A stretch of 64,000 nucleotides of DNA, taken from the NCBI RefSeq assembly GCF_035084215.1, contig NC_090364.1, positions 4,278,001-4,342,000 of the forward strand, written 5' to 3'. Shown here piece by piece: positions 1,289 to 58,976 of the stretch; positions within the stretch are counted from its first letter, which is position 1, and every line of letters begins with the position of its first letter. The stretch is from Heptranchias perlo (lineage: Eukaryota). The position numbers and the translations under genes are program-made. Below the pieces are notes generated by a model that saw only the letters and a program-made list of their open reading frames with translations, was not told the DNA's origin and ran no database searches.

Positions 1289-3869
1289 TCAGTCACTCTC
1301 CCCCAGGGTGTGCTTATCAAACAGGTACACTCCCATGCCATTCTCAGGGGCTCCCAGTCTCTTCAGGTTGGTGATGTGATCTCCAAGCTTCTTGATCATC
1401 TTCACTTGTTCATCCAAGTAGTGGGTCTCCAGGAAGTCACGCAACTGGAAAAGGGAGATTTTCATTTAAGGCACCTATTTCATTAAGATTGGTTTATTAA
1501 ACAAATTGCTTCAGGCACCCTGCATTGATTCACTTTCTCCTACTCAAGGAGAAAGCAGTCCTAAAAGTGACTATTGCACAAGAATCAATTCCTACTCCAA
1601 ACCTTCCCTTCCTGCTTTGTTTTCAGAGGTCGTCTCCACGTCTGCCTCTCACTAAAACTGGTACTAATCGAGGCATCTAGTAAACTGAATAAACAGATGG
1701 GCTTTTGAGGGTCTGTTCTCAGTGGACAGTTTGTGCAGATCCAGCGGACTCTGGTAAGGTGGCAGAGGATGCGAACAGTAGTGACCACACTTCAAGAGAA
1801 GTTAAATTGGCTGTAAAGTGCTTTGGGACATCCAGGTCACTATACAAGTGCAAGTGCTTCCTTTCATAAAGGAAACATTAGAAACTTACATGAGGGTCTG
1901 TCCTCTCAGTGGACAGTTTGTGCAGATCCAGCAGACTCTGGTTCACATTCTTCTCCATCTGCAGAGCTCTCTGCATTGCCTCCAGACCATTGCTCCACTC
2001 ATCCTGCTCTGGTTTCTGGGGGGGGGGGGGGGGGGGGGAAGAAAGAAACAGAAAGAAAGAAATTGAAAAATTAGTTATTCTTGAGCATGATAAGACTTAG
2101 GATCACAAGTCAATGTCCCTTCTTGGTAGGTCACCCCTTCTCCCCACCCCCCCTAGATTTTACTAGTCTGTTCATCCCAGCAGATATCCTAATAAGTGAG
2201 TTGTTCTTTATTCACAGCAGTGTATGCTTTAAGGTGGGGTATCCTAAAAGGAAACACAATATGCCAAATGATGTCCAACAAGTACTAATTGCAGTAACAT
2301 TTCCTTGCCTTTGGACAAACCCCATCAGATTAGTTTTTTTGTACTTGCAAGTTAGCTTCTAATGACCTTCCCAATCCCTTTGCTCATATACTCTTATCCT
2401 TACATAGGAGGTGAACTAACTCATTGAACTAAATCAACCATCATACCTACCCCAGAGCTCACTACAGATCCTAGCTTAACATATACCACTATTTGCAAAT
2501 CCAGATCATACATGCACTAGTGGGCACCAGCTCAAAGATGGTCTATTTTATCCCAACTCTGCCTCCTGCTCCACCCAGTTTTACTGTTGTCACAAGGTTG
2601 CATCTAATTCCATGCACTTCAATTTTAGTCAGCAATCTCCTACCTTCTGAAAATCCATGTACACAACATTTATTAAATCCCCCTGGCAAAATTCACTCAA
2701 TAGAAAATCTATTAACTAGTCTACTTTTCACAAAAGCAAGGCAATTCTTCAAAGCTTGCTGACCTTGATGTCCTCCAAGATGACTCGGCCCCCACGCTGA
2801 TTCTGGAATTTCAGTAGTTTCTCAGCGTGCTCCCGTTCCTCATGTGACTGCTCCTTGAAGAACTCAGCAAAGTGACGCAGGGCAACATCATCCCGGTCAA
2901 AGTAATAGGACTGTTGGTAGAAATAAAATGGAAAGAGAGAGTCAGGTCAGACCTAAATCTCATCCAAGGCCAGCTCAAAAATGGTGGTAACATCATGGTA
3001 GATATACCCATTCTCTACCTTTTGAAACTTAGCTATCAATTAAGGGGCTCAGTTTCTACAAAAAAAGGGAAAAAATTCTGGCACGTCAAACTCAATTTGC
3101 TTAATTGATCTTTTCTGAGTATGTTGACAGTCCAGCTCTGTGGCATAGCTCAACTAGACAAGAGGTTGCCTAAAAACATTAGGGAGCAAATGCTTTTTGG
3201 ATTAAAGTTTATTTCAGCATTCAAGCTATACTTACATCAGCTAAACTGTGGTAGCTACTTTTGTTCCCAGGTAGAAGTCTAAAATCAGTGAAGGGAAAGA
3301 GCAAAATCTTTCAAATTCAGTAGTTTAACAACTTGAAATCATTGTGAAGATCCAGCCTCAGTGAGGAAAACTTCAACACAACAGGATTCTCAGGACTTCA
3401 CTCAATTAGAAAGGGGAAATAACTAGCCAGAACCAGCCAATGTTTCACTAACTAGTTACCAATTAAATGTAGTTGTTTGCATTCAAGTTGGAAAAGGTTC
3501 ACCAGGTTTGTACATCTGCAAGATGAACCCTCTATTACAAACTTCATGGAACCCTTCAGTTAATTTCAGAATAGGACACAGCTATTATAGAGCAGGGAAC
3601 AATCGGTCAATGAAATCTTCTACAAGTTCACTGGATTGAGACTGGGGAAGAGTCACATAGGTACACTCCAGAGCCAATCCATTAACCTAGAGAAATTCTA
3701 CCTGCTTGGAGTACAATGACACCACAGCCTTAATTTTGAAACAGAGCCCCAAAAATACAAAACTCACCATAGAAAGATAAACATAAGAAGAATAGAGTTC
3801 CATATTGATCTGCTTGTTAACACCATCCTCACACTCCTTGTGATAGTTCTGACATACTTGGGAGGCCAT
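1289..3869 (-). CDS. fth1: Ferritin H/M-type subunit, copy 1 (176 aa); exons 3768-3869, 2764-2910, 1890-2015, 1289-1444
   Basis: Splices (GT-AG, all phase 0) to [176 protein letters not shown]. Canonical vertebrate ferritin intron positions; ferroxidase residues E27,Y34,E61,E62,H65,E107,Q141 present; AATAAA near 1148-1153. Exact orthology (H vs M) not resolved. Confidence 0.93.
1706..1755 (-). pseudogene. Partial extra copy of ferritin exon 3 within intron 3 of copy 1
   Basis: tgagggtctgttctcagtggacagtttgtgcagatccagcggactctggt matches 1891-1942 with a 2-nt deletion and a few substitutions; lacks splice sites. Confidence 0.85.
1781..1860 (+). mobile_element. 3' tail of Deu-domain SINE (same element as 7405-7778)
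   Basis: gtgaccacacttcaagagaagttaa...catcc..ggtca..ctatacaagtgcaag matches 7703-7770. Confidence 0.6.
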
Positions 3870-3944
3870 CTTTACTTTCACTATTAACAGAAATCTCACT
3901 TCAAACTGCAGGAACAACCTAACCTCTTCCCTCACAAGCTCTTG

Positions 3945-4070
3945 TATTTATACTACTGGGACAGCCTGCATTTAAACAGGGTATGACATCACCAATGACG
4001 ATTGACAATCCCTGATAGCCACTCAGGAATCTTCCATGAATCCAGGCACCAATTAACAAAGGACAGGGGG
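3945..4070 (-). promoter_or_regulatory. Ferritin core/proximal promoter: TATA box, CRE/AP-1-like TGACATCA, CCAAT boxes
   Basis: TATAAATA on minus strand at 3945-3952, ~80 bp upstream of ATG; TGACATCACCAAT and a second CACCAAT upstream; block is near-identical upstream of every exon 1 in the window. Confidence 0.75.
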
Positions 4071-4841
4071 TTATGCTTGAGGCTTTCCGCGACCGGTGGG
4101 CACCGCAGGGGCTGGAGTGCATCCTGAACGAGGATAATAAAATTTTGATTTGAACTCTTGGTTTTGGTTTGTTTGGTTTTTAGTTGTTAAGCACACCCCA
4201 CACCCCCCTTCTTATAAAAGGGGGGCCTAATTGGAAAAAAGAACAAAAAAAAAAAAAAAAAAAAATCTGTAAAAAAAAACAATCCCTGATAGCCACTCAG
4301 GAATCTTCCATGAATCCAGGCACCAATTAACAAAGGACAGGGGGTTATGCTTGAGGCTTTCCGCGACCGGTGGGCACCGCAGGGGCTGGAGTGCATCCTG
4401 AACGAGGATAATAAAATTTTGATTTGAACTCTTGGTTTTGGTTTTTAGTTGTTAAGCACACCCCACACCCCCCCTTCTTATAAAAGGGGGGCCTAATTAG
4501 AGAAGATATAAAAAAAAATAAAAAAAAAAAATCCAGGCACCAATTAACAAAGGACAGGGGGTTATGCTTGAGGCTTTCTGCGACTGGTGAGCACCGCAGG
4601 GACTTTTTAATGTGTTTTAGGCCCCCTTTTATAAGTGGGGTTCGCACCACAGGGACTGGAGTGCATCTTTGATCAGTACAATAAAATTATTTGACTTTGT
4701 TTATTTTTATTCTGATTAGTGTTTAAAAAAGAAAGTGACACCCTAACCCCCCTTCTTATAAAAGGGGGCCTACCCCCCCCCCCAAAAAAAAAGGGGATGT
4801 ATGGTGTTAAAGAGGGCTTATATAAAAAAAGATAAAAAGAA
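4071..4841 (+). mobile_element. Stack of three 5'-truncated Tx1-clade 3' ends (4071-4279, 4345-4531, 4562-4841) separated by duplicated promoter sequence
   Basis: Each matches the ORF2 end (LEAFRDRWAPQGLECILNEDNKILI*), GT-rich 3'UTR, C6-TTCTTATAAAA-G6 hairpin and poly(A) of the full-length element at 37375-37556. Confidence 0.92.
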
Positions 4842-4928
4842 GTGGGGGTGGGGTGTGATTCCCAGAGCCAGTCAGAACTTTGGAATACAGGCAGGTTTGG
4901 ATGATTCTGTGATGTCATTGCTGATGGT

Positions 4929-5127
4929 CTCTATTCTTTTTGTATTACTATTAATAACTCAAATCAACTAATGAAAGTGCCCTTTTTTAGAGGGGCACAA
5001 ACAATCAACACCCCAAATCATAAAAACCAAAGGAAACTTATCAAACTAAACAATAATATTACCCACCGGTCGTGGAAGGCCTCAAGCGCACTGGCAGACA
5101 CCCCGAGTTACCTCTCCAGGGCCACCC
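4929..5127 (-). mobile_element. Older, inverted 5'-truncated Tx1-clade fragment in copy-1 upstream region
   Basis: Reverse complement reads cgggtggccctggagagg...ggtgtctgccagtgcgcttgaggccttccacgaccggtggg (cf. 37335-37401) plus 3'UTR hairpin; flanked by imperfect repeat gctgatggt/gctgttagt. Confidence 0.8.
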
Positions 5128-5139
5128 GCTGTTAGTTTT

Positions 5140-21677: not shown

Positions 21678-21876
21678 CTTAACTTTTCCTGTTAACAGAG
21701 ATTACTCTTCAAACACCACTACAGGAACAACCTAACCTCTTCCCTCACAAGCTCTTGTATTTATACTACTGGGACAGCCTGCAGTTAAACAGGGTATGAC
21801 ATCACCAATGATGATTGACAATCCCTGATAGCCACTCAGGAATCTTCCATGAATCCAGGCACCAATTAACAAAGGA

Positions 21877-30415: not shown

Positions 30416-30495
30416 CTTAACTTTTACTATTAGCAAAACTCTCACTTTAAACACCACTGCAGAAACAATGTCACCTCTTCCCTCACAAGCTTTTG

Positions 30496-30746: not shown

Positions 30747-31477
30747 GGGTTGTCTTTCAGACACACCAGCTCGGCATTGGAGCTGATTCTGGCTGAACTG
30801 CCACTGAGTGGAGAGCAGAGAGAGCAGAGGGAGCAGGCCCTTGCCCGGGTCCCTCTGAGTCAAGGAGAAGGAGAAGGAGAAACCACCATCAACAAGGAGG
30901 GAGGGAGGGAGAAGAATACTACCAAACAGCAGCCGGGAGGGGTTGTGCTGCTGCTGCTGCTGCTGGTTTGCGACACCGAACAGAGGGAGGAAGAGGAGGT
31001 CGGTGCAGTGAGGTGCGTCGGCTGAAGGTAGGGGGAGGAAGAAGACTTCAGAGGACAGGGGTCCCCCCCAAGTGTCTGGCCCAGGACAGCTGGAGCTGCC
31101 TGGGTGAAGTTACTTTTTCAATCTTTGGAGGACTGAGCCTCGGCAGCTCCAGCTGTCTAGGGGAAGACATCTCCTCCCCCTGCCCACTGGAAGACAGACA
31201 GAAGAAGATCCACCTTTTAAGGTGCAACCCCGCCCCTCTTCCACCCACTTCTGCAGCAGCCTACCCCTGCAGACTCCCTCCTTCCCATTCCACCATTAAT
31301 CCCTCCCACCTTCTCTTGCTCTCCCGGATATTCTGGGGGAAAGTAAAACCAGCAAAGGGGCCCCTCTCCCAACCAAGCTCTGGGATTCGGGGAGAGAGGT
31401 TTCCTCAGGGCTTCTTTTAAAAAGGCCTAATTTCATCAGTGGGCCCGAGACTTGGGGTGGGTGTGGCTCCTGAAGTC

Positions 31478-33519
31478 ATGGCGTCACCATCTTCGCCGGT
31501 GCCGGGACCCAGCAGGACGTATGCGGCGGTTACCTCGGGGGCCGCTCCTACAGTTCGTGCCGCTCCTGCTGGGCCGGCGCCTTTCCGCCTCATTACCAGG
31601 AAGCATGGGGTGAAGAGCTACGCCCACCCCAACATGACCATTGAGGCCTGCGTTAAGGCCATGGCCGAGGTTGTCGGCCCCTCGGCCATCGTCGCGGCCT
31701 CAAAAATGTACGGGAGGGCGGTGTTCTTCCTGAGGTCCGAGCGGGCGGTGTCCCTGGCCCTTAGTAAGGGGCTCACGGTGGGCGGGACCTTCCTGCCGGT
31801 GGACCCGCTGGAGGCCACCGCGCAGCGGGTCATTCTATCTAACGTCCCGCCTTTCCTGTCGGACGAGCTCCTCCTCCCCCACCTACGTCAACTGGGGGAG
31901 GTGAGGTCGGGGGTAACGCCGCTGCCGCTCGGACTCAGGGAGAACAGCCTCCGGCATGTTTACTCCTTCCGTCGCCAGGCATTCGTCAAGCTGGCACGGG
32001 AGGAGGTTACGGAGGGGGGCTTTAACGCCCTCCACGAGGGGACCCCTTACCGCGTCTTTTGGACGGCAGAGGGTGGGCGGTGCCATGCCTGTAAGGAGGT
32101 GGGGCACCTGAAGAGGAACTGCCCTGCCTCTCAGGCCGCCAAAACAGCTACGGCGGCCGGGGCTGGCGCCGCCACCGCTCCTCCCCCCCAACCCCGCCCC
32201 CGCGTCGGGAGAGTCAACTGCGCGGGTGGAGGTTGTCGGCGAGGCCTCCGCCGGTGGGGGGGGGGGGGAGCGGGGGGAAGGGAACCCTCGCCCGAAAAAA
32301 GCGCGGAGAAAGAGAAAGAATCTCGAGGCTGGTCCCCAGGACATGAATAATCTTAGTCAGCCCGAGGCCGTGACCGCGGCCAGTCAACACCTCGCGGTCG
32401 CGACAGAGCCCGGGCTGGCGGGTGATCAGGAGGGAGCGGAGGTGGGGGCCCCAGCAGACATGGAGATCCCCCTCCCTCCGCGACCCTCCGGGAAGAAGAA
32501 AAGGCGCCACTCCCTGGAAGCGGAGGAGGTCCCTGGTAAGGGACGGCCCCCCGTGGAAGGGGAGGTGGCGCCAGCCACGGATCCTGTGGCCCCGCCCATT
32601 ATTTCTAACCAGCGGCAGGGGTCGTCTGCCTCTCGGGGGGAGGTGACCGAGCCCGTGCCTCCCGGGGGGGATGGGGAGACCCTGCTGATGGGGGGGGTCG
32701 CGGATCCGTGTACTGACGCCAGTATCCCGTTCACCGGGTCGGGAGTCCTGGGTGCCGGGTTGGGCGAGGCCGTTGCGGCCGAATTCGTCTGCCCCCGGCT
32801 TGACCTCTCCCAGGACCTGCTCGACCTGGTGGTTGGTTTTAATCGAAACATCTCACCGGCCGGGTCGGTCGGTGGCGGTGTGGGTGGGGAGACCCCCTCC
32901 TCTCAGTCTCTGGGCACGGTGCCGGGTGAGGTGGGAGAACACGTTCTCCCCGGTTTCCCCCTATATCCGGGTGCCAGTTTTTCACCGCTCGGAGGCTGGG
33001 GAGGGTCCCCGCCCGGCGCCGCCCTCTGACCCGGACCCCCCGGTGGAGCCCGGGGAGGACTCCTCTGCCGACGATCCTGGGGGTGGGATCGTGACAGAGG
33101 CGGGGCCGGCCGGCGCGGCCGTCCCGTTCTCCGCACCCTGTGCGGGGAGTGGGTTGGCCGCGGGCGACGATGACCCGGAGGAGGACGGAGACTCGGTGGT
33201 GGGCACTTGGGAGGATTTAGAGTTCGCCGCCAGTGAGGTGGTGGACGCCCTCGTGCCCTGCACCGAGTCTCCCCTCATCCCCGTTGAGGAACTCCGGAAT
33301 TTTGCGTCCGGTTGGAGCCATCGTCGCGATGGCGTCCGGCGGGCCCTCGACCGTTGGTCGGAGCCGGCGCAACTAATCTGCTCGGTCCGGGCTGCCGTCG
33401 CGTCCGTGGCCGCGGAAGAGTACGGCGGCGGGGACGGGCTGCGCCGGCTCAGTTCCCTCCTCGCCGGGCTCTTGGGGGAGTGGCGGTCGACTAGCGGCCC
33501 CGCTCCCTCTGCGCTTTAG
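31478..33519 (+). pseudogene. Tx1 ORF1 (nucleic-acid-binding/gag-like), split over three frames
   Basis: MASPSS...RKHGVK...IVAASKMYGRAVFFL...VILSNVPPFL...HVYSFRRQAF...CHACKEVGHLKRNC (CX2CX4HX4C) is characteristic of Tx1 ORF1; frame breaks lie in or near C/G runs (could be sequencing errors). Confidence 0.8.
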
Positions 33520-33548
33520 GTTTAAGTAGGTTGCGCTGTGCTCTTGTC

Positions 33549-36500
33549 ATGGAGATCACCATAGCCAGCCTCAACATCAACGGCGGCAGAGACGCCCGCC
33601 GTAGATTTGACAAGTTCTCGGTCCTTCGGGACGGGAAGTATGCGGTGTGCTTTCTGCAGGAAACCCACACCGTTCCGGGAGACGAGGCCACGTGGATCCT
33701 GGAATGGGGAGGGGGGGTCTACTTGAGTCACCTCGCCAGCGTTTCGAGCGGGGTGGCCATCTTGTTGGCCCCGACTTTTCAGCCGGAGATCTTGGGGGTC
33801 AAGGAGCCGGTGCCGGGCCGCTTGCTCCACGTAGCCCTTCGCCACGGGGACGTGCCGCTTCACCTGGTGAACGTGTACGCCCCCTGGTCCGAGGGCGAGC
33901 AAGTGAGCTTCTTTGAGGAAGTGTCCACTTACCTGAACTCCGTCGACGCCGGCGAGTGCATTATCCTCGGGGGGGATTTTAACCGTACCCTCGAGGCGAG
34001 GGACCGCTCCGGTCCCGTGCGTGCCCGAACGGCGACGGGGAAGTTGAGGGACCTGGTCGGGTCCTTCGACTTGGTGGACGTCTGGCGGAATCTCCATCCC
34101 GACTCCGGCCAGTTCACCTTTGTGAGGGCCGGAGGAGGGAGCTCCAGAATCGACCGCCTGTACGTTTCGCGGGCGTACGCCTCCTGCGTCCCGTCGGCCT
34201 CCATCCGGCCGGTGTCGTGCTCGGACCACCACCTGGTGTGGATGGAGCTCGCTCTGCTCCGCGCCCGGTCGGGGTCCGCGTACTGGCACTTTAACAACCG
34301 GCTGCTGGAGGACGCGCGGTTCCGGGACTCGTTCCGTCTGTTCTGGAGCGACTGGAGAGGGAAGCGGGGAGGCTTCTCCTCCTTGAGGCTATGGTGGGAC
34401 GTGGGCAAGGCTCACGTCCGCCTCTTCTGTCAAGAGTACGCGAGGGGGTCGACCAAGAGGCGGGAGTCCGAGGTCAGGCGGTTGGAGCAGGAGGTGCTTG
34501 GCCTGGAGTCCCGTCTCGGTCAGGCTGCCGAGGATCCGGCCCTGCGGCAGGTGTACGAGGAGAGGAAGGACGCTCTGAGGGACCTGCAACTGGTCGGGTC
34601 CCGAGGAGCGTACGTGAGGTCGCGGCTCCAGCTCCTTCAGGACCTGGACTGCGGCTCTCCCTTCTTCTACTCGCTGGAAAAGCGGCGGGGGGCTCGTAAG
34701 CAGCTCCTTACGCTGCTGGCCGACGACGGGACCCTCGTCTCGGACCCGGAGGGAGTCAGGGTCCGTGCTCGATCTTACTACGAGGCTCTGTTCTCTCCGG
34801 ATCCGTCCAGCGAGGAGGCGCGCAGAGTTTTGTGGGAGGACCTGCCGAAGGTTGGCCCGGAGGACGCCGACAGTATGGATGCTCCGCTGAGTTTGGCGGA
34901 GCTGACCGGCGCCCTCCACCAGCTCTCTAGGGGCAAGTCCCCGGGGCTGGACGGGCTGACCGTGGAGTTCCTCAGGGCCTTCTGGGACGTCCTGGAGGGC
35001 GACTACGCGCGGGTCCTGGGGGAATGTCTGGCGACCGGGGAGATGCCCCTTTCGTGGCGCAGAGCGGTCGTGGTCCTGCTGCCTAAGAAGGGGGATCTCC
35101 GTCACCTTAAAAACTGGCGCCCGGTCTCCCTCCTCAGCACGGATTATAAGGTCTTTGCCAAGGCGATGTCTGCTCGCCTGGGCACCGTGCTGGCCCACAT
35201 GATCCACTCCGACCAGTCCTACACGGTCCCGGGCCGGAAGATCCACGATAACATCCATCTGGTCTGGGACCTGATCCACCATTCCCAGAGGGCTGGTCTG
35301 TCGGTCGCCTTCCTTTCCTTAGATCAGGAGAAGGCGTTCGACAGGGTGGATCACGAGTATCTATTCGGGACACTGCGCGCTTTCGGGTTCGGGTCGCATT
35401 TCGTCGCCCGGATCCGACTTCTGTTCGCCGCCGCGGAGTGTCTGATTAAGGTTAACGGATCCTTGACGGCGCCCCTTCGCTTCGGGAGAGGAGTGCGTCA
35501 GGGGTGCCCCATGTCCGGCCAATTATACGCCGTCTGCGTGGAGCCTTTCCTGCGCCTCTTGCGCAAGAGGTTGTCGGGACTGGCTCTGCGCGAGCCGGAC
35601 GTGGAGGTCGTCCTTTCGGCTTACGCCGACGACGTGCTCCTCGTGGTCACGGATCCCCTTGACTTGCGGAGGATGCGCGAGTGCCAAGAGGTCTACTCTG
35701 CGGCGTCTTCCGCAAGGTTCAACTGGGAGAAATGTTCCGGACTCCTGGTGGGTCAGTGGCGGGTGGACTCCCTGCCGGAGGAGCTCAGGCCTTTCGCCTG
35801 GAGTACCACGCACCTCCGGTACCTGGGAGTCTACCTCGGCCCTGCCGAGGAAGCCTGGCCGGCGAACTGGGAAGAGCTGGAGGCCAAGGTCGCCGCTCGC
35901 CTGGCGCGCTGGACAGGACTGCTCCGAGTGTTATCCTACAGGGGTCGAGTGCTGGTCATAAACCAGCTGGTGGCCGCCATGTTGTGGTACAGATTGGTCA
36001 CTTTGACCCCACCCCCCGAGTTTGTCGCCAAAATTCAGAAGAAGTTTGTCGACTTCTTCTGGGCCAGAGGGATACACTGGGTCGCTGCCGCGGTCCTGAG
36101 TCTCCCGCTTAGGGAGGGCGGTCAGGGGCTGGTGTGCGTCCGCACCCAGGTGGCAACTTTCCGCCTTCGGACGCTGCGGCGATACCTGTACGTTGAGCGT
36201 CCTCTTAGATGGCGTGCGCTGGCGACGTATTTTTTCCGCCAGCTGCACGGCCTGAACTACGACACGCAGCTCCTGTTCATCTCGCTGGTGGGCGGCCGCA
36301 CGTCTTTGCAGGAGCTGCCTGTCTTTTACCAGGATCTGCTCAGGGTCTGGAACATGGTCGCCTCTGGTCGGAGCTCTCGCCCGTCAGGGGTAGCGGCCGT
36401 CCTGCAGGAGCCGCTGCTCGGGAATCCGTTCCTCCGCGATATCGGCTTCGGCCACTCGCGGCTGTCGGTGCGGAGGGCCGTGGCCGGTCGGGTGACCAGA

Positions 36501-37454
36501 GTCAGGGACGTCCTGGATGGCGGTGGGTCGGGTTGGTTGGAGCCGTGGGCGCTCGCCGCACGGATGTCCTCGTGGCGTGCCGGGGACGCGGCCATCGCCA
36601 TCCGGGCGTTGAAATCGGCGCTCGGCCCTGACTCCACTCGGGATGTGGAGGCGGCTCAGGCGTGCGGAGCCATCCCGTCCGACCTGACCCCCGTTCGGAC
36701 GGAGTTCCTCCTCGGCGCCAAACCCCGGAACCTCCCTCGGGGGGCCGCGCCTCACAACTTGAGCCGTCTCTCGGAAATTCCCTCCGTGCCGTTTCACACC
36801 GCGCGGAGGGATTTCCTGTACGGGCTGCTCCTGCACACCATCCACTTCCTCGCCCTCGTCTCTCGGCCGGACACGCCCTGGCGTACCATCCTGCCGTCCG
36901 GCGGAGACGGGGGTCCCCATTGGGAGGCTCTCTATACAGGGGTCCTCCCGTGTTACTTTGGGGATCTGGGGTGGAGGGTGGCGCACGGAGCAGTCGCGTG
37001 CAACCGGCGGTTACGCCATTTCACGGACACCCAGGCCGCTTGTGATTTCTGCGGCCTGGAGGAGTCCGTGTTCCATCTGTACACTGGGTGTGCGAGACTG
37101 CAGCCCCTGTTCCATTATTTGAAGGGGCTGCTCCTCAAGTTCTGGCTGCACTTCAGTCCCACGCTCCTGATCTTTGGCCGCCCTGTGAGGAGGGGGGCGG
37201 GCAGGTCGGTGGACGTTCTCGTGGGCCTGCTCCTGGGCCTGTCCAAGGTGGCCATCCACAGGTCTAGGATGATCGTGGTCCGTGGGGGCGGTCGCTCGGC
37301 CTGTCTGCCTCTCTTCCGCGGAATGCTCCGCGCCCGGGTGGCCCTGGAGATGGAGCACGCGGTGTCTGCCGGTACGCTCGAGGCTTTCCGCGGCCGGTGG
37401 GCACCGCAGGGGCTGGAGTGCATCCTGGACGAGGAAAATAACATTTTAATTTGA
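33549..37454 (+). CDS. Tx1 ORF2, intact 1301 aa: APE endonuclease + reverse transcriptase + C-terminal Cys/His motif
   Basis: SLNING, FLQETH, GGDFN, RID, SDH endonuclease motifs; KSPGLDG, NWRPVSLL, SLDQEKAFD, GVRQGCP, YADD, YLG RT motifs; CDFC..ESVFHLYTGC. Confidence 0.96.
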   Translation: MEITIASLNINGGRDARRRFDKFSVLRDGKYAVCFLQETHTVPGDEATWILEWGGGVYLSHLASVSSGVAILLAPTFQPEILGVKEPVPGRLLHVALRHGDVPLHLVNVYAPWSEGEQVSFFEEVSTYLNSVDAGECIILGGDFNRTLEARDRSGPVRARTATGKLRDLVGSFDLVDVWRNLHPDSGQFTFVRAGGGSSRIDRLYVSRAYASCVPSASIRPVSCSDHHLVWMELALLRARSGSAYWHFNNRLLEDARFRDSFRLFWSDWRGKRGGFSSLRLWWDVGKAHVRLFCQEYARGSTKRRESEVRRLEQEVLGLESRLGQAAEDPALRQVYEERKDALRDLQLVGSRGAYVRSRLQLLQDLDCGSPFFYSLEKRRGARKQLLTLLADDGTLVSDPEGVRVRARSYYEALFSPDPSSEEARRVLWEDLPKVGPEDADSMDAPLSLAELTGALHQLSRGKSPGLDGLTVEFLRAFWDVLEGDYARVLGECLATGEMPLSWRRAVVVLLPKKGDLRHLKNWRPVSLLSTDYKVFAKAMSARLGTVLAHMIHSDQSYTVPGRKIHDNIHLVWDLIHHSQRAGLSVAFLSLDQEKAFDRVDHEYLFGTLRAFGFGSHFVARIRLLFAAAECLIKVNGSLTAPLRFGRGVRQGCPMSGQLYAVCVEPFLRLLRKRLSGLALREPDVEVVLSAYADDVLLVVTDPLDLRRMRECQEVYSAASSARFNWEKCSGLLVGQWRVDSLPEELRPFAWSTTHLRYLGVYLGPAEEAWPANWEELEAKVAARLARWTGLLRVLSYRGRVLVINQLVAAMLWYRLVTLTPPPEFVAKIQKKFVDFFWARGIHWVAAAVLSLPLREGGQGLVCVRTQVATFRLRTLRRYLYVERPLRWRALATYFFRQLHGLNYDTQLLFISLVGGRTSLQELPVFYQDLLRVWNMVASGRSSRPSGVAAVLQEPLLGNPFLRDIGFGHSRLSVRRAVAGRVTRVRDVLDGGGSGWLEPWALAARMSSWRAGDAAIAIRALKSALGPDSTRDVEAAQACGAIPSDLTPVRTEFLLGAKPRNLPRGAAPHNLSRLSEIPSVPFHTARRDFLYGLLLHTIHFLALVSRPDTPWRTILPSGGDGGPHWEALYTGVLPCYFGDLGWRVAHGAVACNRRLRHFTDTQAACDFCGLEESVFHLYTGCARLQPLFHYLKGLLLKFWLHFSPTLLIFGRPVRRGAGRSVDVLVGLLLGLSKVAIHRSRMIVVRGGGRSACLPLFRGMLRARVALEMEHAVSAGTLEAFRGRWAPQGLECILDEENNILI

Positions 37455-37556
37455 ACACTTGGTTTTGGTTTATTTGGTTTTTAGTATTTAAGCACACCCC
37501 ACACCCCCCCTTCTTATAAAAGGGGGGCCTATTAACAAAAAAAAAAAAAAAAAAAA

Positions 37557-37734
37557 TCCAGGCACCAATTAACAAAGGACAGAAGGTGGGGTGTGATTCC
37601 CAGAACCAATCAGAGCTTTGGAATACAGGTGGGATTGGAGAATTATTCTGTGATGCCATTGCTGTTGGTTTCTTTGACTTTCCTCAAACGAAATCTGATC
37701 ACATCAAAAAAAAAAAGAAAAAAAAAAAAAAAAA
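37557..37734 (+). other. 149-bp ferritin-promoter fragment followed by a second poly(A): probable 3' transduction
   Basis: 37557-37705 aligns to 30592-30740 with 8 mismatches, then ~29-nt poly(A), then the sequence resumes as a copy of 21854 onward. Confidence 0.75.
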
Positions 37735-46296: not shown

Positions 46297-47366
46297 CTTA
46301 ACTTTTACTATTAGCAAAACTCTCACTTTAAACACCACTGCAGAAACAATGTCACCTCTTCCCTCACAAGCTTTTGTATTTATATTACTGGGACAGCCTG
46401 CATTTGAACAGGTTATGACATCACCAATGATGATTGACAATCCCTGATAGCCACTCAGGAATCGTCCATGAATCCAGGCACCAATTAACAAAGGACAGGG
46501 GGTGGGGTGTGATTCCCAGAACCAATCAGAACTTTGGAATACAGGCAGGATTGGAGGATTATTGTGTGATGTCATTGCTGTTGGTTTCTTTGACTTTCCT
46601 CAAACGAAATCTGATCACATCTCTGTTGGGTTGTCTTTCAGACACACCAGCTCGGCATTGGAGCTGATTCTGGCTGAACTGCCACTGAGTGGAGAGCAGA
46701 GAGAGCAGAGGGAGCAGGCCCTTGCCCGGGTCCCTCTGAGTCAAGGAGAAGGAGAAGGAGAAACCACCATCAACAAGGAGGGAGGGAGGGAGGGAGGGAG
46801 AAGAATACTACCAAACAGCAGCCGGGAGGGGTTGTGCTGCTGCTGCTGCTGCTGGTTTGCGACACCGAACAGAGGGAGGAAGAGGAGGTCGGTGCAGTGA
46901 GGTGCGTCGGCTGAAGGTAGGGGGAGGAAGAAGACTTCAGAGGACAGGGGTCCCCCCCAAGTGTCTGGCCCAGGACAGCTGGAGCTGCCTGGGTGAAGTT
47001 ACTTTTTCAATCTTTGGAGGACTGAGCCTCGGCAGCTCCAGCTGTCTAGGGGAAGACATCTCCTCCCCCTGCCCACTGGAAGACAGACAGAAGAAGATCC
47101 ACCTTTTAAGGTGCAACCCCGCCCCTCTTCCACCCACTTCTGCAGCAGCCTACCCCTGCAGACTCCCTCCTTCCCATTCCACCATTAATCCCTCCCACCT
47201 TCTCTTGCTCTCCCGGATATTCTGGGGGAAAGTAAAACCAGCAAAGGGGCCCCTCTCCCAACCAAGCTCTGGGATTCGGGGAGAGAGGTTTCCTCAGGGC
47301 TTCTTTTAAAAAGGCCTAATTTCATCAGTGGGCCCGAGACTTGGGGTGGGTGTGGCTCCTGAAGTC

Positions 47367-49405
47367 ATGGCGTCACCATCTTCGCCGGTGCCAGGACCCA
47401 GCAGGACGTATGCGGCGGTTACCTCGGGGGCCGCTCCTACAGTTCGTGCCGCTCCTGCTGGGCCGGCGCCTTTCCGCCTCATTACCAGGAAGCATGGGGT
47501 GAAGAGCTACGCCCACCCCAACATGACCATTGAGGCCTGCGTTAAGGCCATGGCCGAGGTTGTCGGCCCCTCGGCCATCGTCGCGGCCTCAAAAATGTAC
47601 GGGAGGGCGGTGTTCTTCCTGAGGTCCGAGCGGGCGGTGTCCCTGGCCCTTAGTAAGGGGCTCACGGTGGGCGGGACCTTCCTGCCGGTGGACCCGCTGG
47701 AGGCCACCGCGCAGCGGGTCATTCTATCTAACGTCCCGCCTTTCCTGTCGGACGAGCTCCTCCTCCCCCACCTACGTCAACTGGGGGAGGTGAGGTCGGG
47801 GGTAACGCCGCTGCCGCTCGGACTCAGGGAGAACAGCCTCCGGCATGTTTACTCCTTCCGTCGCCAGGCATTCGTCAAGCTGGCACGGGAGGAGGTTACG
47901 GAGGGGGGCTTTAACGCCCTCCACGAGGGGACCCCTTACCGCGTCTTTTGGACGGCAGAGGGTGGGCGGTGCCATGCCTGTAAGGAGGTGGGGCACCTGA
48001 AGAGGAACTGCCCTGCCTCTCAGGCCGCCAAAACAGCTACGGCGGCCGGGGCTGGCGCCGCCACCGCTCCTCCCCCCCAACCCCGCCCCCGCGTCGGGAG
48101 AGTCAACTGCGCGGGTGGAGGTTGTCGGCGAGGCCTCCGCCGGGGGGGGGGGGGGGAGCGGGGGGAAGGGAACCCTCGCCCGAAAAAAGCGCGGAGAAAG
48201 AGAAAGAATCTCGAGGCTGGTCCCCAGGACATGAATAATCTTAGTCAGCCCGAGGCCGTGACCGCGGCCAGTCAACACCTCGCGGTCGCGACAGAGCCCG
48301 GGCTGGCGGGTGATCAGGAGGGAGCGGAGGTGGGGGCCCCAGCAGACATGGAGCTCCCCCTCCCTCCGCGACCCTCCGGGAAGGAAAGGCCCCACTCCCT
48401 GGAAGCGGAGGGGGGTTCCTGGTAAGGGACGGCCCCCCGTGGAAGGGGAGGTGGTGCCAGCCACGGATCCTGTGGCCCCGCCCATTATTTCTAACCAGCG
48501 GCGGGGGTCGTCTGCCTCTCGGGGGGAGGTGACCGAGCCCGTGCCTCCCGGGGGGGATGGGGAGACCCTGCTGATGGGGGGGGTCGCGGATCCGTGTACT
48601 GACGCCAGTATCCCGTTCACCGGGTCGGGCGTCCTGGGTGCCGGGTTGGGCGAGGCCGTTGCGGCCGAATTCGTCTGCCCCCGGCTTGACCTCTCCCAGG
48701 ACCTGCTCGACCTGGTGGTTGGTTTTAATCGAAACATCTCACCGGCCGGGTCGGTCGGTGGCGGTGTGGGTGGGGAGACCCCCTCCTCTCAGTCTCTGGG
48801 CACGGTGCCGGGTGAGGTGGGAGAACACGTTCTCCCCGGTTTCCCCCTATATCCGGGTGCCAGTTTTTCACCGCTCGGAGGCTGGGGAGGGTCCCCGCCC
48901 GGCGCCGCCCTCTGACCCGGACCCCCCGGTGGAGCCCGGGGAGGACTCCTCTGCCGACGATCCTGGGGGTGGGATCGTGACAGAGGCGGGGCCGGCCGGC
49001 GCGGCCGTCCCGTTCTCCGCACCCTGTGCGGGGAGTGGGTCGGCCGCGGGCGACGATGACCCGGAGGAGGACGGAGACTCGGTGGTGGGCACTTGGGAGG
49101 ATTTAGAGTTCGCCGCCAGTGAGGTGGTGGACGCCCTCGTGCCCGACACCGAGTCTCCCCTCATCCCCGTTGAGGAACTCCGGAATTTTGCGTCCGGTTG
49201 GAGCCATCGTCGCGATGGCGTCCGGCGGGCCCTCGACCGTTGGTCGGAGCCGGCGCAACTAATCTGCTCGGTCCGGGCTGCCGTCGCGTCCGTGGCCGCG
49301 GAAGGGGACGGCGGCGGGGTCGGGCTGCGCCGGCTCAGTTCCCTCCTCGCCGGGCTCTTGGGGGAGTGGCGGTCGACTAGCGGCCCCGCTCCCTCTGCGC
49401 TTTAG
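47367..49405 (+). pseudogene. Tx1 copy B ORF1, frameshifted
   Basis: Same protein as 31478-33519 in several frames. Confidence 0.8.
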
Positions 49406-49434
49406 GTTTAAGTAGGTTGCGCTGTGCTCTTGTC

Positions 49435-52400
49435 ATGGAGATCACCATAGCCAGCCTCAACATCAACGGCGGCAGAGACGCCCGCCGTAGATTTGACAAG
49501 TTCTCGGTCCTGCGGGACGGGAAGTATGCGGTGTGCTTTCTGCAGGAAACCCACACCGTTCCGGGAGACGAGGCCACGTGGATCCTGGAATGGGGAGGGG
49601 GGGTCTACTTGAGTCACCTCGCCAGCGTTTCGAGCGGGGTGGCCATCTTGTTGGCCCCGACTTTTCAGCCGGAGATCTTGGGGGTCAAGGAGCCGGTGCC
49701 GGGCCGCTTGCTCCACGTGGCCCTTCGCCACGGGGACGTGCCGCTTCACCTGGTGAACGTGTACGCCCCCTGGTCCGGAGCCGAGCAAGTGAGCTTCTTT
49801 GAGGAAGTGTCCACTTACCTAAACTCCGTCGACGCCGGCGAGTGCATTATCCTCGGGGGGGATTTTAACCGTACCCTCGAGGCGAGGGACCGCTCCGGTC
49901 CCGCGCGTGCCCGAACGGCGACGGAGAAGTTGAGGGACCTGGTCGGGTCCTTCAACTTGGTGGACGTCTGGCGGAATCTCCATCCCGACTCCGGCCAGTT
50001 CACCTTTGTGAGGGCCGGAGGAGGGAGCTCCAGAATCGACCTCCTGTACGTTTCGCGGGCGTACGCCTCCTGCGTCCCGTCGGCCTCCATCCGGCCGGTG
50101 TCGTGCTCGGACCACTACCTGGTGTGGATGGAGCTCGCTCTGCTCCGCGCCCGGTCGGGGTCCGCGCACTGGCACTTTAACAACCGGCTGCTGGAGGACG
50201 CGCGGTTCCGGGACTCGTTCCGTCTGTTCTGGAGCGACTGGAGAGGGAAGCGGGGAGGCTTCTCCTCCTTGAGGCTATGGTGGGACGTGGGCAAGGCTCA
50301 CGTCCGCCTCTTCTGTCAAGAGTACGCGAGGGGGTCGACTAAGAGGCGGGAGTCCGAGGTCAGGCGGTTGGAGCAGGAGGTGCTTGGCCTGGAGTCCCGT
50401 CTCGGTCAGGCCGCCGAGGATCCGGCCCTGCGGCAGGTGTACGAAGAGAGGAAGGACGCTCTGAGGGACCTGCAACTGGTCGGGTCCCGAGGAGCGTACG
50501 TGAGGTCGCGGCTCCAGCTCCTTCAGGACCTGGACTGCGGCTCTCCCTTCTTCTACTCGCTGGAAAAGCGGCGGGGGGCTCGTAAGCAGCTCCTTACGCT
50601 GCTGGCCGACGACGGGTCCCTCGTCTCGGACCCGGAGGGAGTCAGGGCCCGTGCTCGATCTTACTACGAGGCTCTGTTCTCTCCGGATCCGTCCAGCGAG
50701 GAGGCGCGCAGAGTTTTGTGGGAGGACCTGCCGAAGGTTGGCCCGGAGGACGCCGACAGTATGGATGCTCCGCTGAGTTTGGCGGAGCTGACCGGCGCCC
50801 TCCACCAGCTCTCCAGGGGCAAGTCCCCGGGGCTGGACGGGCTGACCGTGGAGTTCCTCAGGGCCTTCTGGGACGTCCTGGAGGGCGACTACGCGCGGGT
50901 CCTGGGGGAATGTCTGGCGACCGGGCGGTCGTGGCGCAGAGCGGTCGTGGTCCTGCTGCCTAAGAAGGGGGATCTCCGTCACCTTAAAAACTGGCGCCCG
51001 GTCTCCCTCCTCAGCACGGATTATAAGGTCTTTGCCAAGGCGATGTCTGCTCGCCTGGGCACCGTGCTGGCCCACATGATCCACCCCGACCAGTCCTACA
51101 CGGTCCCGGGCCGGAAGATCCACGATAACATCCATCTGGTCTGGGACCTGATCCACCATTCCCAGAGGGCTGGTCTGTCGGTCGCCTTCCTTTCCTTAGA
51201 TCAGGAGAAGGCGTTCGACAGGATGGATCACGAGTATCTATTCGGGACACTGCGCGCTTTCGGGTTCGGGTCGCATTTCGTCGCTCGGATCCGACTTCTG
51301 TACGCCGCCGCGGAGTGTCTGATTAAGGTTAACGGATCCTTGACTGCGCCCCTTCGCTTCGGGAGAGGAGTGCGTCAGGGGTGCCCCATGTCCGGCCAAT
51401 TATACGCCGTCTGCGTGGAGCCTTTCCTGCGCCTCTTGCGCAAGAGGTTGTCGGGACTGGCTCTGCGCGAGCCGGACGTGGAGGTCGTCCTTTCGGCTTA
51501 CGCCGACGACGTGCTCCTCGTGGTCACGGATCCCCTTGACTTGCAGAGGATGCGCGAGTGCCAAGAGGTCTACTCTGCGGCGTCTTCCGCAAGGATCAAC
51601 TGGGAGAAATGTTCCGGACTCCTGGTGGGTCAGTGGCGGGTGGACTCCCTGCCGGAGGAGCTCAGGCCTTTCGCCTGGAGTACCACGCACCTCCGGTACC
51701 TGGGAGTCTACCTCGGCCCTGCCGAGGAAGCCTGGCCGGCGAACTGGGAAGAGCTGGAGGCCAAGGTCGCCGCTCGCCTGGCGCGCTGGACAGGACTGCT
51801 CCGAGTGTTATCCTACAGGGGTCGAGTGCTGGTCATAAACCAGCTGGTGGCCGCCATGTTGTGGTACAGATTGGTCACTTTGACCCCACCCCCCGAGTTT
51901 GTCGCCAAGATTCAGAGGAAGTTCGTCGACTTCTTCTGGGCCAAAGGGATACACTGGGTCGCTGCCGCGGTCCTGAGTCTCCCGCTTAGGGAGGGCGGTC
52001 AGGGGCTGGTGTGCGTCCGCACCCAGGTGGCAACTTTCCGCCTTCGGACGCTGCGGCGATACCTGTACGTTGAGCGTCCTCTTAGATGGCGTGCGCTGGC
52101 GACGTATTTTTTCCGCCAGCTGCACGGCCTGAACTACGACACGCAGCTCCTGTTCCTCTCGCTGGTGGGCGGCCGCACGTCTTTGCAGGAGCTGCCTGTC
52201 TTTTACCAGGATCTGCTCAGGGTCTGGAACATGGTCGCCTCCGGTCGGTGCTCTCGCCCGTCAGGGGTAGCGGCCGTCCTGCAGGAGCCGCTGCTCGGGA
52301 ATCCGTTCCTCCGCGATATCGGCTTCGGCCACTCGCGGCTGTCGGTGCGGAGGGCCGTGGCCGGTCGGGTGACCAGAGTCAGGGACGTCCTGGATGGCGG

Positions 52401-53325
52401 TGGGTCGGGTTAGTTGGAGCCGTGGGCGCTCGCCGCACGGATGTCCTCGTGGCGTGCCGGGGACGCAGCCGCCGCCATCCAGGCGTTGAAATCGGCGCAC
52501 GGACCTGACTCCACTCGGGATGTGGAGGCGGCTCAGGCGTGCGGAGCCATCCCGTCCGACCTGACCCCCGTTCGGACGGAATTCCTCCTCGGCGCCAAAC
52601 CCCGGAACCTCCCTCGGAGGGCTGTGCCTCACAACTTGAGCCGTCTCTCGGAAATTCCCTCCGTGCCGTTTCACACCGCGCGGAGGGATTTCCTGTACGG
52701 GCTGCTCCTGCACACCATCCACTTCCTCGCCCTCGTCTCTCGCCCGGACACGCCCTGGCGTACCGTCCTGCCGTCCGGCGGAGGCCCCCAGTGGAGGGCT
52801 CTCTACTCGGGGTTCCTCCCGTGTTACATCGGGGATCTGGGGTGGAGGGTGGCGCACGGAGCAGTCGCGTGCAACCGGCGGTTACGCCATTTTACGGACT
52901 CCCAGGCCGCCTGCAATTTTTGCGGCCTGGATGAGTCCGTGTTTCATTTTTTCGCTGGGTGTGGGAGACTGCAGCCCCTGTTTGATTATTTGGAGGGGCT
53001 GCTCCTCAAGTTCTGGCTGCACTTCAGTCCCACGCTCCTGATCTTTGGGCGCCCGGTGAGGAGGGGGGCGGGCAGGTCGGTGGACGTCCTCGTGGGCTTC
53101 CTCCTGGGCCTGTCCAAGGTGGCCATCCACAGGTCCAGGTTGCTCGCGGTCCGTGGGGGCGGTCGCTCGGCCTGTCTGCTTCTCTTCCGCGGAATGCTCC
53201 GCGCCCGGGTGGCCCTGGAGATGGAGCATGCGGTGTCTGCCGGTACACTCGAGGCTTTCCGCGACCGATGGGCACCGCAGGGGCTGGAGTGTATCCTGAA
53301 CAAGGAAAATAAAATTTTAATTTGA
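49435..53325 (+). pseudogene. Tx1 copy B ORF2, disabled
   Basis: In-frame TAG at 52411-52413 (TGG in copy A) and a 9-bp deletion near 50925 (ATGEMPLSWRR -> ATGRSWRR). Confidence 0.92.
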
Positions 53326-54364
53326 TGCCTGGTTTTGGTTTATTTTGTTTTTAGTATTTAAGAAAGAAAAAAGAAAAAAAAAAATCTGATGACATCTCTG
53401 TTCCCAGAATCAGAGCTTCACAACATATCTCAAAGAGATCGATGAGTTTACAAATGGAAATCCCATCCCGTAGATGGTGTCGAGCACAATCGGTTCTAAG
53501 TTATCCCGTCTCTTGGACAATTGATGGGAATCTAGGTGTGTCCAGAACGAGTCCGTTATACCCAGATTCACAATGTTGATCAGCACAATAGATTGAAGGA
53601 GACTGACCTTCACCAGACGGTCCGCAGTGAGTCCGCAAACCAACCGACAACGAGTCGGGGAAATGGAAAGTGGATCAGTCGGGAGCTTCAAACAGAACTC
53701 TGTTGCTCCATCACTGTAAAGGGTGATATGGAGTTTTATCCCCATGAAATTTAAGAACTGCAAAGTCCAGTAATTAGTTTGCACTGTTTCTTCATTGCCT
53801 GAAAATCTCAAGGCCGTTTGAGGAAAGTTTTTACCCTGAAGCGTCAACCGTCTTGTGTTTTCTCCACCGACACTGCCTTATCGTTTATAGAGACATCCCC
53901 TGCCAGTTAAGCCAATATTTAGTTTGTAGATAGTTTAATCATGTTTAACAGCTCACCTTGTCTGCCAGCTTAGTCTTTGAGAATATTTAATGAGCTCATG
54001 TGCATAAGTACTTTCAAATGAAGTTAATTCATTCCCTTTAGGTTAACTATTTTTGAACATTAGAGGTATTTCATCATCTAAACTCATCCCCACACACTTT
54101 GTGGGTTCAGGGCAGTCTTTTTGAACAAGTTGTGGTAATTAGAAATATACAAAGTGAAGTATGGAAGATAATGTACAGCAACTGTTTGATTAAAATTAAC
54201 CGGTGGATTCCTGTAACAGGTAGTGATGCTGTAATAGAAATTGTGTTTAACTTGTTGGGAGACACAAATTGTACAAAAGCAAATGATTCTTCCAGTATAT
54301 CAGTACAGATCTCTCCACTTTACCCAACACCAAGTACGATATTCTGCAGTTTGATGTATGGTTG

Positions 54365-55449: not shown

Positions 55450-58976
<3,527 letters not shown>

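What the first reader, a model, noticed from the sequence alone, without database searches (positions are those of the whole stretch)
4006..4600. Stacked Tx1 stubs share one 5' junction but have different tails: homology-guided re-insertion
Seen: three stubs start with the identical junction ggacaggggg-ttatgcttgaggctttc. Their poly(A) tails differ and join different target bases (acAA|TCCCTGAT at 4283, AA|TCCAGG at 4532, A|GTGGGGG at ~4842), duplicating ~65 and ~30 bp of promoter. The third stub is most diverged. Inference: new cDNAs primed just gene-proximal of an old stub and annealed to it, copying its junction. This would be a miniature version of the 15.9-kb event. It also multiplies CCAAT boxes in the promoter.
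Basis: partly seen in the sequence, partly recalled or inferred. Interest (0 to 1): 0.72.

Follow-up and report, generated by a model that had tools for sequence, protein, structure and literature searches.

The report
Stacked retrotransposon stubs in shark promoter
Three leftover ends of a jumping gene, stacked in front of a shark ferritin gene, share exactly the same starting junction, most likely because new copies were finished by pairing with the old copy next door, a known kind of insertion accident caught here as it repeated.

Summary
Observation confirmed. Three 3' stubs of a Tx1 retrotransposon sit at 4072-4843, upstream of one gene in a shark ferritin array. They share one 5' junction, found nowhere else in the window, and are separated by exact 67- and 33-bp target repeats.

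Stub 2 is a chimera. It has stub 3's junction and first 16 nt, but a young body: 11 differences from stub 3 in positions 17-66, 9 of them matching the young copies. DNA duplication cannot give that. The same pattern appears at 15.9 kb: 2 substitutions in 10.4 kb, then 109 in the Tx1 3' 5.2 kb.

Stub 1 versus stub 2 is less certain. The bodies have 0 substitutions and 2 indels, and the tails differ beyond run length (p about 0.003, optimistic). A 5-nt microhomology still leaves DNA duplication open.

Sequence cannot separate one-step cDNA capture from an ordinary insertion followed by homologous repair. The CCAAT gain is minor and distal.

The mechanism resembles L1 chimeric insertions and R1/R2 annealed 5' junctions. 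New here: an inherited truncation point and strong clustering at ferritin promoters. No outside loci could be examined.

The parts
3771..3872 (-). Ferritin heavy-chain-like gene g1, coding exon 1 (exons 2-4 near 2767-2913, 1883-2010, 1300-1460)
   Evidence: Exon 2 matches Pfam Ferritin; best identities 94-98% to Heptranchias perlo and Heterodontus francisci ferritins; each exon reads open
3943..4004 (-). TATA box and proximal promoter, untouched by the stack; ends in an 11-bp palindrome (4000-4010) that contains stub 1's target site
4005..4071 (+). Original 67-bp target segment (site 1 at its left end, site 2 at 4039), ending at the shared 5' junction
4072..4232 (+). Stub 1 body: Tx1 ORF2 end, 3' UTR and terminal hairpin
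   Evidence: 149 of 149 aligned nt identical to stub 2, two indels; 11 substitutions against full copy A
4233..4279 (+). Stub 1 A-rich tail (47 nt) with an internal non-A block
4279..4345 (+). Exact 67-bp duplicate of the target
4346..4498 (+). Stub 2 body: first 16 nt as in stub 3, remainder young-type; 9-nt deletion in the T/G-rich UTR
4499..4531 (+). Stub 2 A-rich tail (33 nt), joined at site 2, the site also used at 37557 and 37735
4530..4562 (+). Exact 33-bp duplicate of the target
4563..4772 (+). Stub 3, the old resident copy that owns the junction
   Evidence: 20 substitutions and 12 gap events against stub 1; long branch 0.47
4604..4643 (-). Nested inverted 40-nt Tx1 3' end inside stub 3, flanked by a 13-bp duplication (4591-4603 / 4644-4656)
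4773..4843 (+). Stub 3 3' extension and degenerate tail; promoter sequence resumes at 4844, 771 bp from its normal place
30747..37556 (+). Context: full-length Tx1 copy A with open ORF2 (33495-37454); 5' part matches copy B, 3' part differs
37555..37734 (+). Context: 151 bp of another ferritin promoter (from site 2) plus a second A tail after copy A; read as a 3' transduction
   Evidence: best window match has 8 substitutions in 151
46628..53384 (+). Context: resident full-length Tx1 copy B with an ordinary ~20-bp target duplication at site 3

Best explanation
The stack is a record of repeated Tx1 insertion whose 5' end was resolved on the resident copy next door. (1) An ordinary 5'-truncated insertion made stub 3. 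(2) Later a Tx1 particle nicked the promoter 33 bp gene-proximal of stub 3 (site 2) and began target-primed reverse transcription. (3) The new cDNA paired with stub 3, its unpaired end was trimmed back to stub 3's tip, and synthesis was completed across stub 3's junction and the 33 bp back to the nick. Equivalently, the top strand was cut just inside stub 3 and primed on the cDNA. Result: old junction, new body, new tail, and a long target duplication. (4) The same happened again from site 1, 67 bp away, most simply on stub 2, giving stub 1. Pairing with a copy 3' of the nick duplicates the intervening DNA rather than deleting it, so the proximal promoter survives and stubs pile up with the oldest furthest from the gene. 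The 15.9-kb duplication is the same geometry with copy B as the resident. SHOWN: architecture, exact duplications, chimeric make-up of stub 2 and copy A, reuse of site 2, different tails. INFERRED: that recombination happened during insertion, flap trimming, the order of stubs 1 and 2, and the RNA origin of tail 1.
For: Junction present 3 times only, no microhomology at it. Stub 2 vs stub 3: 0 differences in 33 bp of target plus the first 16 nt, 11 in the next 50 nt (Fisher p=5e-4); stub 2 has the young state at 9 of 11. The two stub-3-type sites are the two most 5' of 12 sites where stub 3 differs from young copies (p=0.015). The longest identity run between stub 3 and young copies in the first 66 nt is 12 nt, too short for ordinary unequal crossing-over by the usual minimal-homology figures (recalled). 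Site 2 carries three tail junctions: 4532, 37557, 37735. 15.9-kb copies: 1 substitution in 8,895 host nt, 1 in 1,508 nt of Tx1 5' part (17 expected, P=5e-7), then 48 in 4,146 and 61 in 1,092. Tails 1 and 2 differ by 4 edits after collapsing runs and by 3 in their non-A letters, against 0 substitutions in ~215 nt around them (p=0.002-0.003). An A-rich tail and 9 of 9 homopolymer runs copied in the 15.9-kb event stayed unchanged. Stub 1 has the undeleted state of the 9-nt indel, as do copies A and B. In a human-genome study 0 of 39 nearby repair-type duplications ended in poly(A) (PMC2671141, passages).
Against: Stubs 1 and 2 share 3 private alleles beyond the tip (positions 76, 85, 115), whereas the young copies A, B and the 12-kb fragment all differ from each other there. 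Stub 1 therefore needs the same master as stub 2, or is largely a copy of it. Sites 1 and 2 share a 5-nt microhomology, site 1 lies in a palindrome, and that palindrome bounds a small inversion in another promoter, so a DNA-level break is plausible there. Tail 1 joins 2 nt further left relative to the shared motif than the site-2 tails. The tail statistics assume tails mutate like unique DNA, which they do not, and the 15.9-kb control may be much younger. Markers 3 and 7 are CpG transitions also seen in unrelated old pieces. The tree leaves stub 3 among the young copies on a long branch, so 'older subfamily' is not shown. No pre-insertion allele, reads or other genomes could be examined.
Confidence: 0.5

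Rival explanations
1. Two steps. An ordinary, longer Tx1 first inserted at site 2 (or site 1). While heterozygous it was shortened by repair from, or unequal exchange with, the insertion-free allele, which re-annealed at the resident stub. The same route explains the 15.9-kb duplication as unequal crossing-over between a new copy at gene 4 and copy B.
For: It gives exactly the same sequence. For the 15.9-kb case there are over 5 kb at ~99% identity to recombine. Trimming a long promoter insertion could be favoured by selection (inference).
Against: Each case needs two events. For stub 2 the homology is short and broken, with a longest run of 12 nt. The duplicated host DNA differs at only 1 of 8,895 nt, which fits one chromatid better than two alleles, although recent shared descent could also do it.
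Confidence: 0.2
2. Stub 2 is a true chimera, but stub 1 is a DNA-level tandem duplication of the 274-bp unit through the 5-nt microhomology between site 1 and the end of tail 2. The tails and two repeat tracts drifted afterwards.
For: 166 nt identical across target and stub; 0 substitutions in 149 nt of body; 3 private shared alleles beyond the tip; microhomology and palindrome at site 1.
Against: It needs at least 3-4 non-length changes in a 33-47-nt tail, starting at the first tail base, with none in ~215 nt around it. A comparable tail stayed identical in the 15.9-kb copy. Stub 2's 9-nt deletion must postdate the duplication.
Confidence: 0.2
3. The stub became a tiny non-autonomous element. 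A transcript from the back side of the ferritin promoter carried target plus junction plus stub, was reverse-transcribed in trans, and annealed by its target sequence, as proposed for R1/R2 co-transcripts.
For: It explains exact junctions and the identity of stubs 1 and 2. The stubs face away from a promoter. Read-through into promoter DNA occurs in this family (151-bp piece). Precedent for R1 (PMC2718515, passages).
Against: It cannot make stub 2 from stub 3, because the bodies differ. Tail 1 does not begin with tail 2's sequence. The junction is absent from the other 7 promoters.
Confidence: 0.08
4. Three independent ordinary insertions with a strongly preferred truncation point, or all three from DNA duplication of one stub.
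For: Tandem insertion into regenerated targets is known for R1 and SINEU-3.
Against: The other Tx1 pieces here all end at different positions. The spacers are 67 and 33 bp, not one constant duplication. Differences between stubs 2 and 3 are one-sided and absent from the target repeat.
Confidence: 0.02

Closest known systems
Chimeric L1 insertions completed on a resident L1, with duplication of the intervening DNA (Gilbert et al. 2005, PMC1190285; recalled, not read; seen only in a reference list); 'templated insertions' in tumour L1s (bioRxiv 10.1101/2024.08.27.596794, passages)
   Same: Growing cDNA leaves the RNA and pairs with nearby homologous DNA in an SDSA-like step, so nearby DNA is duplicated. 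Large duplications are treated as long target-site duplications (bioRxiv 10.1101/2024.12.14.628481, passages).
   Different: Here it is germ-line, Tx1 rather than L1, repeated at one spot, and acts on a ~160-nt, ~75-85% identical stub, so that the truncation point itself is inherited.
R1/R2 5' junctions formed by annealing of cDNA to target homology; R1 tandem arrays (Stage and Eickbush 2009, PMC2718515, passages)
   Same: Multicopy target, stacking of copies at one site, precise 5' junctions where the cDNA can anneal.
   Different: R1 arrays are separated by one constant 14-bp duplication and the homology comes from co-transcribed target. Here the spacers vary (67, 33 bp) and the homology is an older element copy.
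Target-preferring Tx1 families: Xenopus Tx1, Keno, Kibi, Koshi, Tx1-Mar; tandem SINEU-3 (Kojima 2015, PMC4494074, passages and section 15)
   Same: ORF2 is 50% identical over 99% of its length to Xenopus TX1 ORF2; clustered, stacked insertions.
   Different: The targets named in the text read are transposons, snRNA/5S genes, satellites and microsatellites. Ferritin is not mentioned (0 hits). Here several nick sites are spread over ~280 bp of a protein-gene promoter, not one fixed site.

Membership tests
Tx1-clade non-LTR retrotransposon (source of the stubs) | ORF2 with N-terminal APE-type endonuclease and reverse transcriptase | tested here: met
   Pfam Exo_endo_phos 6-227 and RVT_1 512-762
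Tx1-clade non-LTR retrotransposon (source of the stubs) | Closest characterised relative is a Tx1 element | tested here: met
   Xenopus TX1 ORF2, 50% identity, 99% cover
Tx1-clade non-LTR retrotransposon (source of the stubs) | ORF1 with CCHC zinc knuckle | tested here: inconclusive
   zf-CCHC E=7e-4, 19.9 bits, below the 20.8 cut-off
Tx1-clade non-LTR retrotransposon (source of the stubs) | Placement inside Tx1 in an RT phylogeny with named families | not tested
   No tree of RT domains was built
Tx1-clade non-LTR retrotransposon (source of the stubs) | A-rich tail and short target duplication on ordinary insertions | tested here: met
   Copy B ~20 bp, 12-kb fragment ~16 bp, 21.9-kb stub ~12 bp, inner piece 13 bp
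Target-specific Tx1 family (Kojima criterion) | More than 20% of genome-wide copies flanked by the target | not testable with these tools
   No eukaryotic genome collection on hand; within the window 5 of 6 primary insertions lie within ~320 bp of a ferritin TATA box
L1-type chimeric insertion with duplication (features recalled) | New tail at a nick 5' of a same-orientation resident copy, with exact duplication of the DNA between | tested here: met
   33 bp, 67 bp and 15.9 kb
L1-type chimeric insertion with duplication (features recalled) | Switch from resident-copy sequence (5') to new sequence (3') | tested here: met
   Stub 2 vs stub 3 between positions 8 and 16; copy A vs B near 31.5-32.3 kb
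L1-type chimeric insertion with duplication (features recalled) | Same switch in stub 1 relative to stub 2 | tested here: inconclusive
   No substitutions to map; only two indels and the tail differ
L1-type chimeric insertion with duplication (features recalled) | Formed in one step from an insertion-free allele | not testable with these tools
   Needs population alleles or a de novo assay
R1/SINEU-3-type tandem array | Copies separated by one constant target duplication, each with its own 5' end | tested here: not met
   Spacers of 67 and 33 bp; one shared 5' end
DNA-level tandem duplication | Whole unit, tail included, equally similar between copies | tested here: not met
   Not met for stubs 2/3; for stubs 1/2 met in the body but not in the tail
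DNA-level tandem duplication | Microhomology at the breakpoint | tested here: met
   5 nt shared by site 1 and the tail-2/site-2 junction

The most novel reading that the evidence does not exclude
Sharks carry a Tx1 lineage that uses the promoters of their greatly amplified, ovary-expressed ferritin arrays as its safe harbour, a protein-coding equivalent of rDNA for R2. It inserts facing away from the gene, 60-280 bp above the TATA box. New insertions routinely finish on the nearest resident copy downstream, so they keep the proximal promoter, inherit old truncation points and, when the resident copy is a gene away, duplicate whole ferritin genes. The element would thereby help build its own target array.
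Probability: 0.3. Interest if true: 0.78.

Novelty: new variant of a known kind. Interest (0 to 1): 0.52.

Why it matters
How the 5' end of a LINE insertion is fixed is still debated. This locus shows, in natural germ-line sequence, that a resident copy as short as ~160 nt and only ~75-85% identical can set where a new copy ends. Shared truncation points are therefore not always proof of DNA duplication or common descent, which matters wherever truncation points are used as markers. The same geometry at 15.9 kb copied a whole ferritin gene. That offers a concrete, testable link between a retrotransposon and the large ferritin arrays of sharks (155 and 179 copies reported, with ovary-specific expression of the largest cluster; bioRxiv 10.1101/2024.09.09.611499, passages). 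No effect on ferritin expression is shown.

Tried and rejected
- A tree of the stub bodies (8 rows) did not place stub 3 with the old pieces. The claim 'stub 3 is an older subfamily' was dropped to 'stub 3 is old'. The 5-kb antisense piece and the 21.9-kb stub were left out of that tree as too short or gapped.
- The Fisher test with 6 tail changes over-counts and is not used; the tests with 3 and 4 changes are.
- The 3' hairpin folds in all copies but beats shuffles in only 1 of 6, so nothing is built on it.
- Rfam gave 0 matches in the window, so no iron-responsive element reached the gathering score.
- Searching the other 7 promoters for stacks with a shared junction found none.
- Snippets in tails that resemble target sites (4 nt in tail 1, 9 nt in tail A) are too short to count as evidence.
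- Ten literature searches listed no paper on Tx1 at ferritin genes or on stacks with a shared truncation junction. The library lacks most subscription papers and Repbase. The supplements of PMC4494074 were not opened and may list more Tx1 targets.
- PMC1920257 (passages) added only background.
- The genome collection on offer holds bacteria and archaea only, so orthologous shark loci and genome-wide Tx1 flanks stayed unchecked.

Full report
Setting. The window is a tandem array of ferritin genes on the minus strand, with 8 copies of exon 2 at roughly 5-7 kb spacing where no large element intervenes. Exon 2 matches Pfam Ferritin. Its highest-identity hits are shark proteins: Heptranchias perlo 92-98%, some named 'oocyte isoform-like', and Heterodontus francisci 90-94%. 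Two full-length elements (A, 30747-37556; B, 46628-53384) encode an endonuclease plus reverse transcriptase ORF2. Copy A's ORF2 is 50% identical over 99% of its length to Xenopus TX1 ORF2. The stubs are the last ~160 nt of this element, facing away from ferritin gene g1.

Observation. The 15-nt junction occurs at 4061, 4335 and 4552 only. The layout is: 67-bp target, stub 1, tail 1, exact 67-bp repeat, stub 2, tail 2, exact 33-bp repeat, stub 3, degenerate tail, rest of promoter. The 7 separate Tx1 pieces listed all start at different element positions, and there is no microhomology exactly at the shared junction. The junction was therefore copied, not re-made. Ordinary insertions here have 12-20-bp duplications.

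Stub 2 against stub 3. With stub 3's nested insert set aside, the two are identical over the 33-bp target repeat and the first 16 nt. They then differ at 11 of the next 50 positions (Fisher p=5e-4), and stub 2 has the young-copy base at 9 of those 11. Of 12 sites in the first 66 nt where stub 3 departs from the young copies, stub 2 follows it at positions 3 and 7 only, the two most 5' (p=0.015). So stub 2 is stub 3's junction on a young body, with the switch between positions 8 and 16. Against it: both marker sites are CpG transitions and recur in unrelated old pieces (position 3 in 1 of 3, position 7 in 3 of 3). Stubs 1 and 2 have 3 other private alleles, so their source could have carried these too. 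The tree puts stub 3 among the young copies on a long branch (0.47), so it is old but not shown to be a separate subfamily. The junction, not the two SNPs, carries most of the weight.

Stub 1 against stub 2. The bodies match at 149 of 149 aligned positions with two indels, both in repeats; stub 1 keeps the 9 nt that stub 2 lacks, as do A and B. The tails (47 and 33 nt) differ from their first base: 19 raw edits, 4 after collapsing runs, 3 among non-A letters. Against 0 substitutions in ~215 surrounding nt this gives p=0.002-0.003, an optimistic figure because tails mutate faster. As a control, an A-rich tail and 9 of 9 homopolymer runs of 7 or more stayed identical in the 15.9-kb duplication, though that event may be younger. 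For DNA duplication: site 1 shares 5 nt with the tail-2 junction, lies in an 11-bp palindrome, and that palindrome bounds a small inversion in the promoter at 59105-59131. I put a new RNA-derived tail at about two to one over DNA duplication.

The large event as an internal model. 21852-37492 and 37733-53362 are 99.1% identical. Substitutions number 1 in 8,895 host nt and 1 in the first 1,508 nt of Tx1, where 17 are expected at the downstream rate (P=5e-7). They then rise to 48 in 4,146 nt and 61 in 1,092 nt. Copy A is thus B's 5' part on a different 3' part. It is followed by a tail, 151 bp of a ferritin promoter that matches no window copy exactly (best 8 substitutions, 7 promoters compared), and a second tail that joins site 2 of gene 4. 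Site 2 carries three tail junctions (4532, 37557, 37735), which marks it as a real cleavage site and implies that the source element itself sat in a ferritin promoter. The geometry is the same as for stub 2: a new tail at a nick, a resident copy further 3', and the DNA between them duplicated.

Mechanism. The simplest single process is target-primed reverse transcription whose cDNA pairs with the resident copy 3' of the nick. A cDNA longer than the stub would have its unpaired end trimmed to the stub's tip, and mismatches nearest that end would be replaced by resident sequence. That predicts resident alleles only at the first few sites, as seen (inference). Duplication rather than deletion follows from the resident copy lying 3' of the nick. 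It leaves the TATA-proximal ~120 bp intact and stacks copies with the oldest outermost. The order of stubs 1 and 2 cannot be fixed. Sequence cannot exclude a two-step route, an ordinary insertion later trimmed by repair from the insertion-free allele. That route is quite plausible for the 15.9-kb case and less so for stub 2, where the longest perfect match in the first 66 nt is 12 nt. A SINE-like route through a transcript of the stub itself fits stub 1 only.

Clustering. In empty-promoter coordinates the sites lie 63, 96, 108, 123, 202 and 232 bp from the TATA motif; the 61-kb fragment starts 278 bp from its TATA motif. Leaving out nested and chimeric events and counting the two antisense pieces as one, 5 of 6 primary insertions fall in about 5-8% of the repeat unit. 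The binomial p is 3e-6 to 2e-5, but the window was chosen after seeing the data and older pieces may be missed. The nick sites are not one sequence, so this may be open-chromatin preference rather than strict specificity. It could not be tested genome-wide.

CCAAT. g1 has 4 plus-strand CCAAT motifs; four paralogues have 3 and two have 2. The two added ones are ~370 and ~590 bp from the TATA box. g1's own distal box is mutated and displaced by 771 bp. Nothing shows a functional effect.

Comparison with what is known. cDNA pairing with nearby homologous DNA and long duplications are described for human L1 (bioRxiv 10.1101/2024.08.27.596794 and 10.1101/2024.12.14.628481, passages). Chimeras with resident L1s are recalled from Gilbert et al. 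2005, which I did not read. Annealed 5' junctions and tandem arrays are described for R1/R2 (PMC2718515, passages). Target preference and tandem insertion are described for Tx1 and SINEU-3 (PMC4494074, passages and section 15). The stack works like an L1-type chimeric insertion and fails the constant-spacer test for an R1-type array. Ten searches listed nothing on Tx1 at ferritin promoters or on inherited truncation junctions; coverage of subscription journals and Repbase is missing. Shark ferritin arrays are known to be very large and ovary-expressed (bioRxiv 10.1101/2024.09.09.611499, passages).

Verdict. The feature is real and is a new variant of a known kind of insertion outcome. One of the two re-insertions is well supported as a chimera, the other is probable, and the timing of recombination is open. 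Interest 0.52; the bolder reading, a ferritin-promoter Tx1 that expands its own target array, has probability about 0.3.

Noticed in passing
window 21852-53384: 15.9-kb duplication that copies a whole ferritin gene; Tx1 copy A switches from B-identical to different near 31.5-32.3 kb.
   Followed up: yes
window 36401-37492 vs copy B: A second step in divergence between A and B (1.2% to 5.6%) in the last 1.1 kb, and B lacks the terminal hairpin; one of them may be a mosaic again.
   Followed up: partly
window 37555-37734: 151 bp of ferritin promoter between two A tails, from a paralogue not in the window; looks like a 3' transduction from a Tx1 sitting at site 2.
   Followed up: partly
window 4604-4643: Inverted 40-nt Tx1 3' end nested in stub 3 with a 13-bp duplication; its target resembles site 1.
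   Followed up: partly
window 4773-4843: Unexplained 70-nt extension after stub 3's hairpin, with C, A and G runs that could be the remains of another 3' end.
   Followed up: no
window ~4940-5128 and ~10250-10570 (minus strand): Old antisense Tx1 pieces at the same promoter position in genes 1 and 2; probably one insertion older than the gene duplication.
   Followed up: partly
window 59105-59131: Small inversion in one promoter, bounded by the palindrome that holds stub 1's target site.
   Followed up: partly
window ~26412-29885 and its copy ~42293-45766: A ~3.5-kb GC-rich element with terminal inverted repeats in ferritin intron 1; one frame matches a Myb/SANT-like domain. It looks Harbinger-like (label recalled); the putative nuclease frame gave no Pfam hit.
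   Followed up: partly
window 4233-4279 and 37531-37556: Tail 1 holds 4 nt that match the start of site 3, and tail A starts with 9 nt matching the target at the 21.9-kb stub's site; possibly read-through relics of source loci, too short to prove.
   Followed up: partly
window 58860-60930: Two exon-1/promoter copies only 1.8 kb apart; the one at 60653-60748 has no exons 2-4 of its own and appears cut just before the start codon.
   Followed up: no
window 57564-58247 and 54057-54545: Open frames that look like fragments of other LINE reverse transcriptases (by eye; not confirmed by a search).
   Followed up: no
whole window: No Rfam iron-responsive element at the gathering score in any of the ferritin copies.
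   Followed up: no
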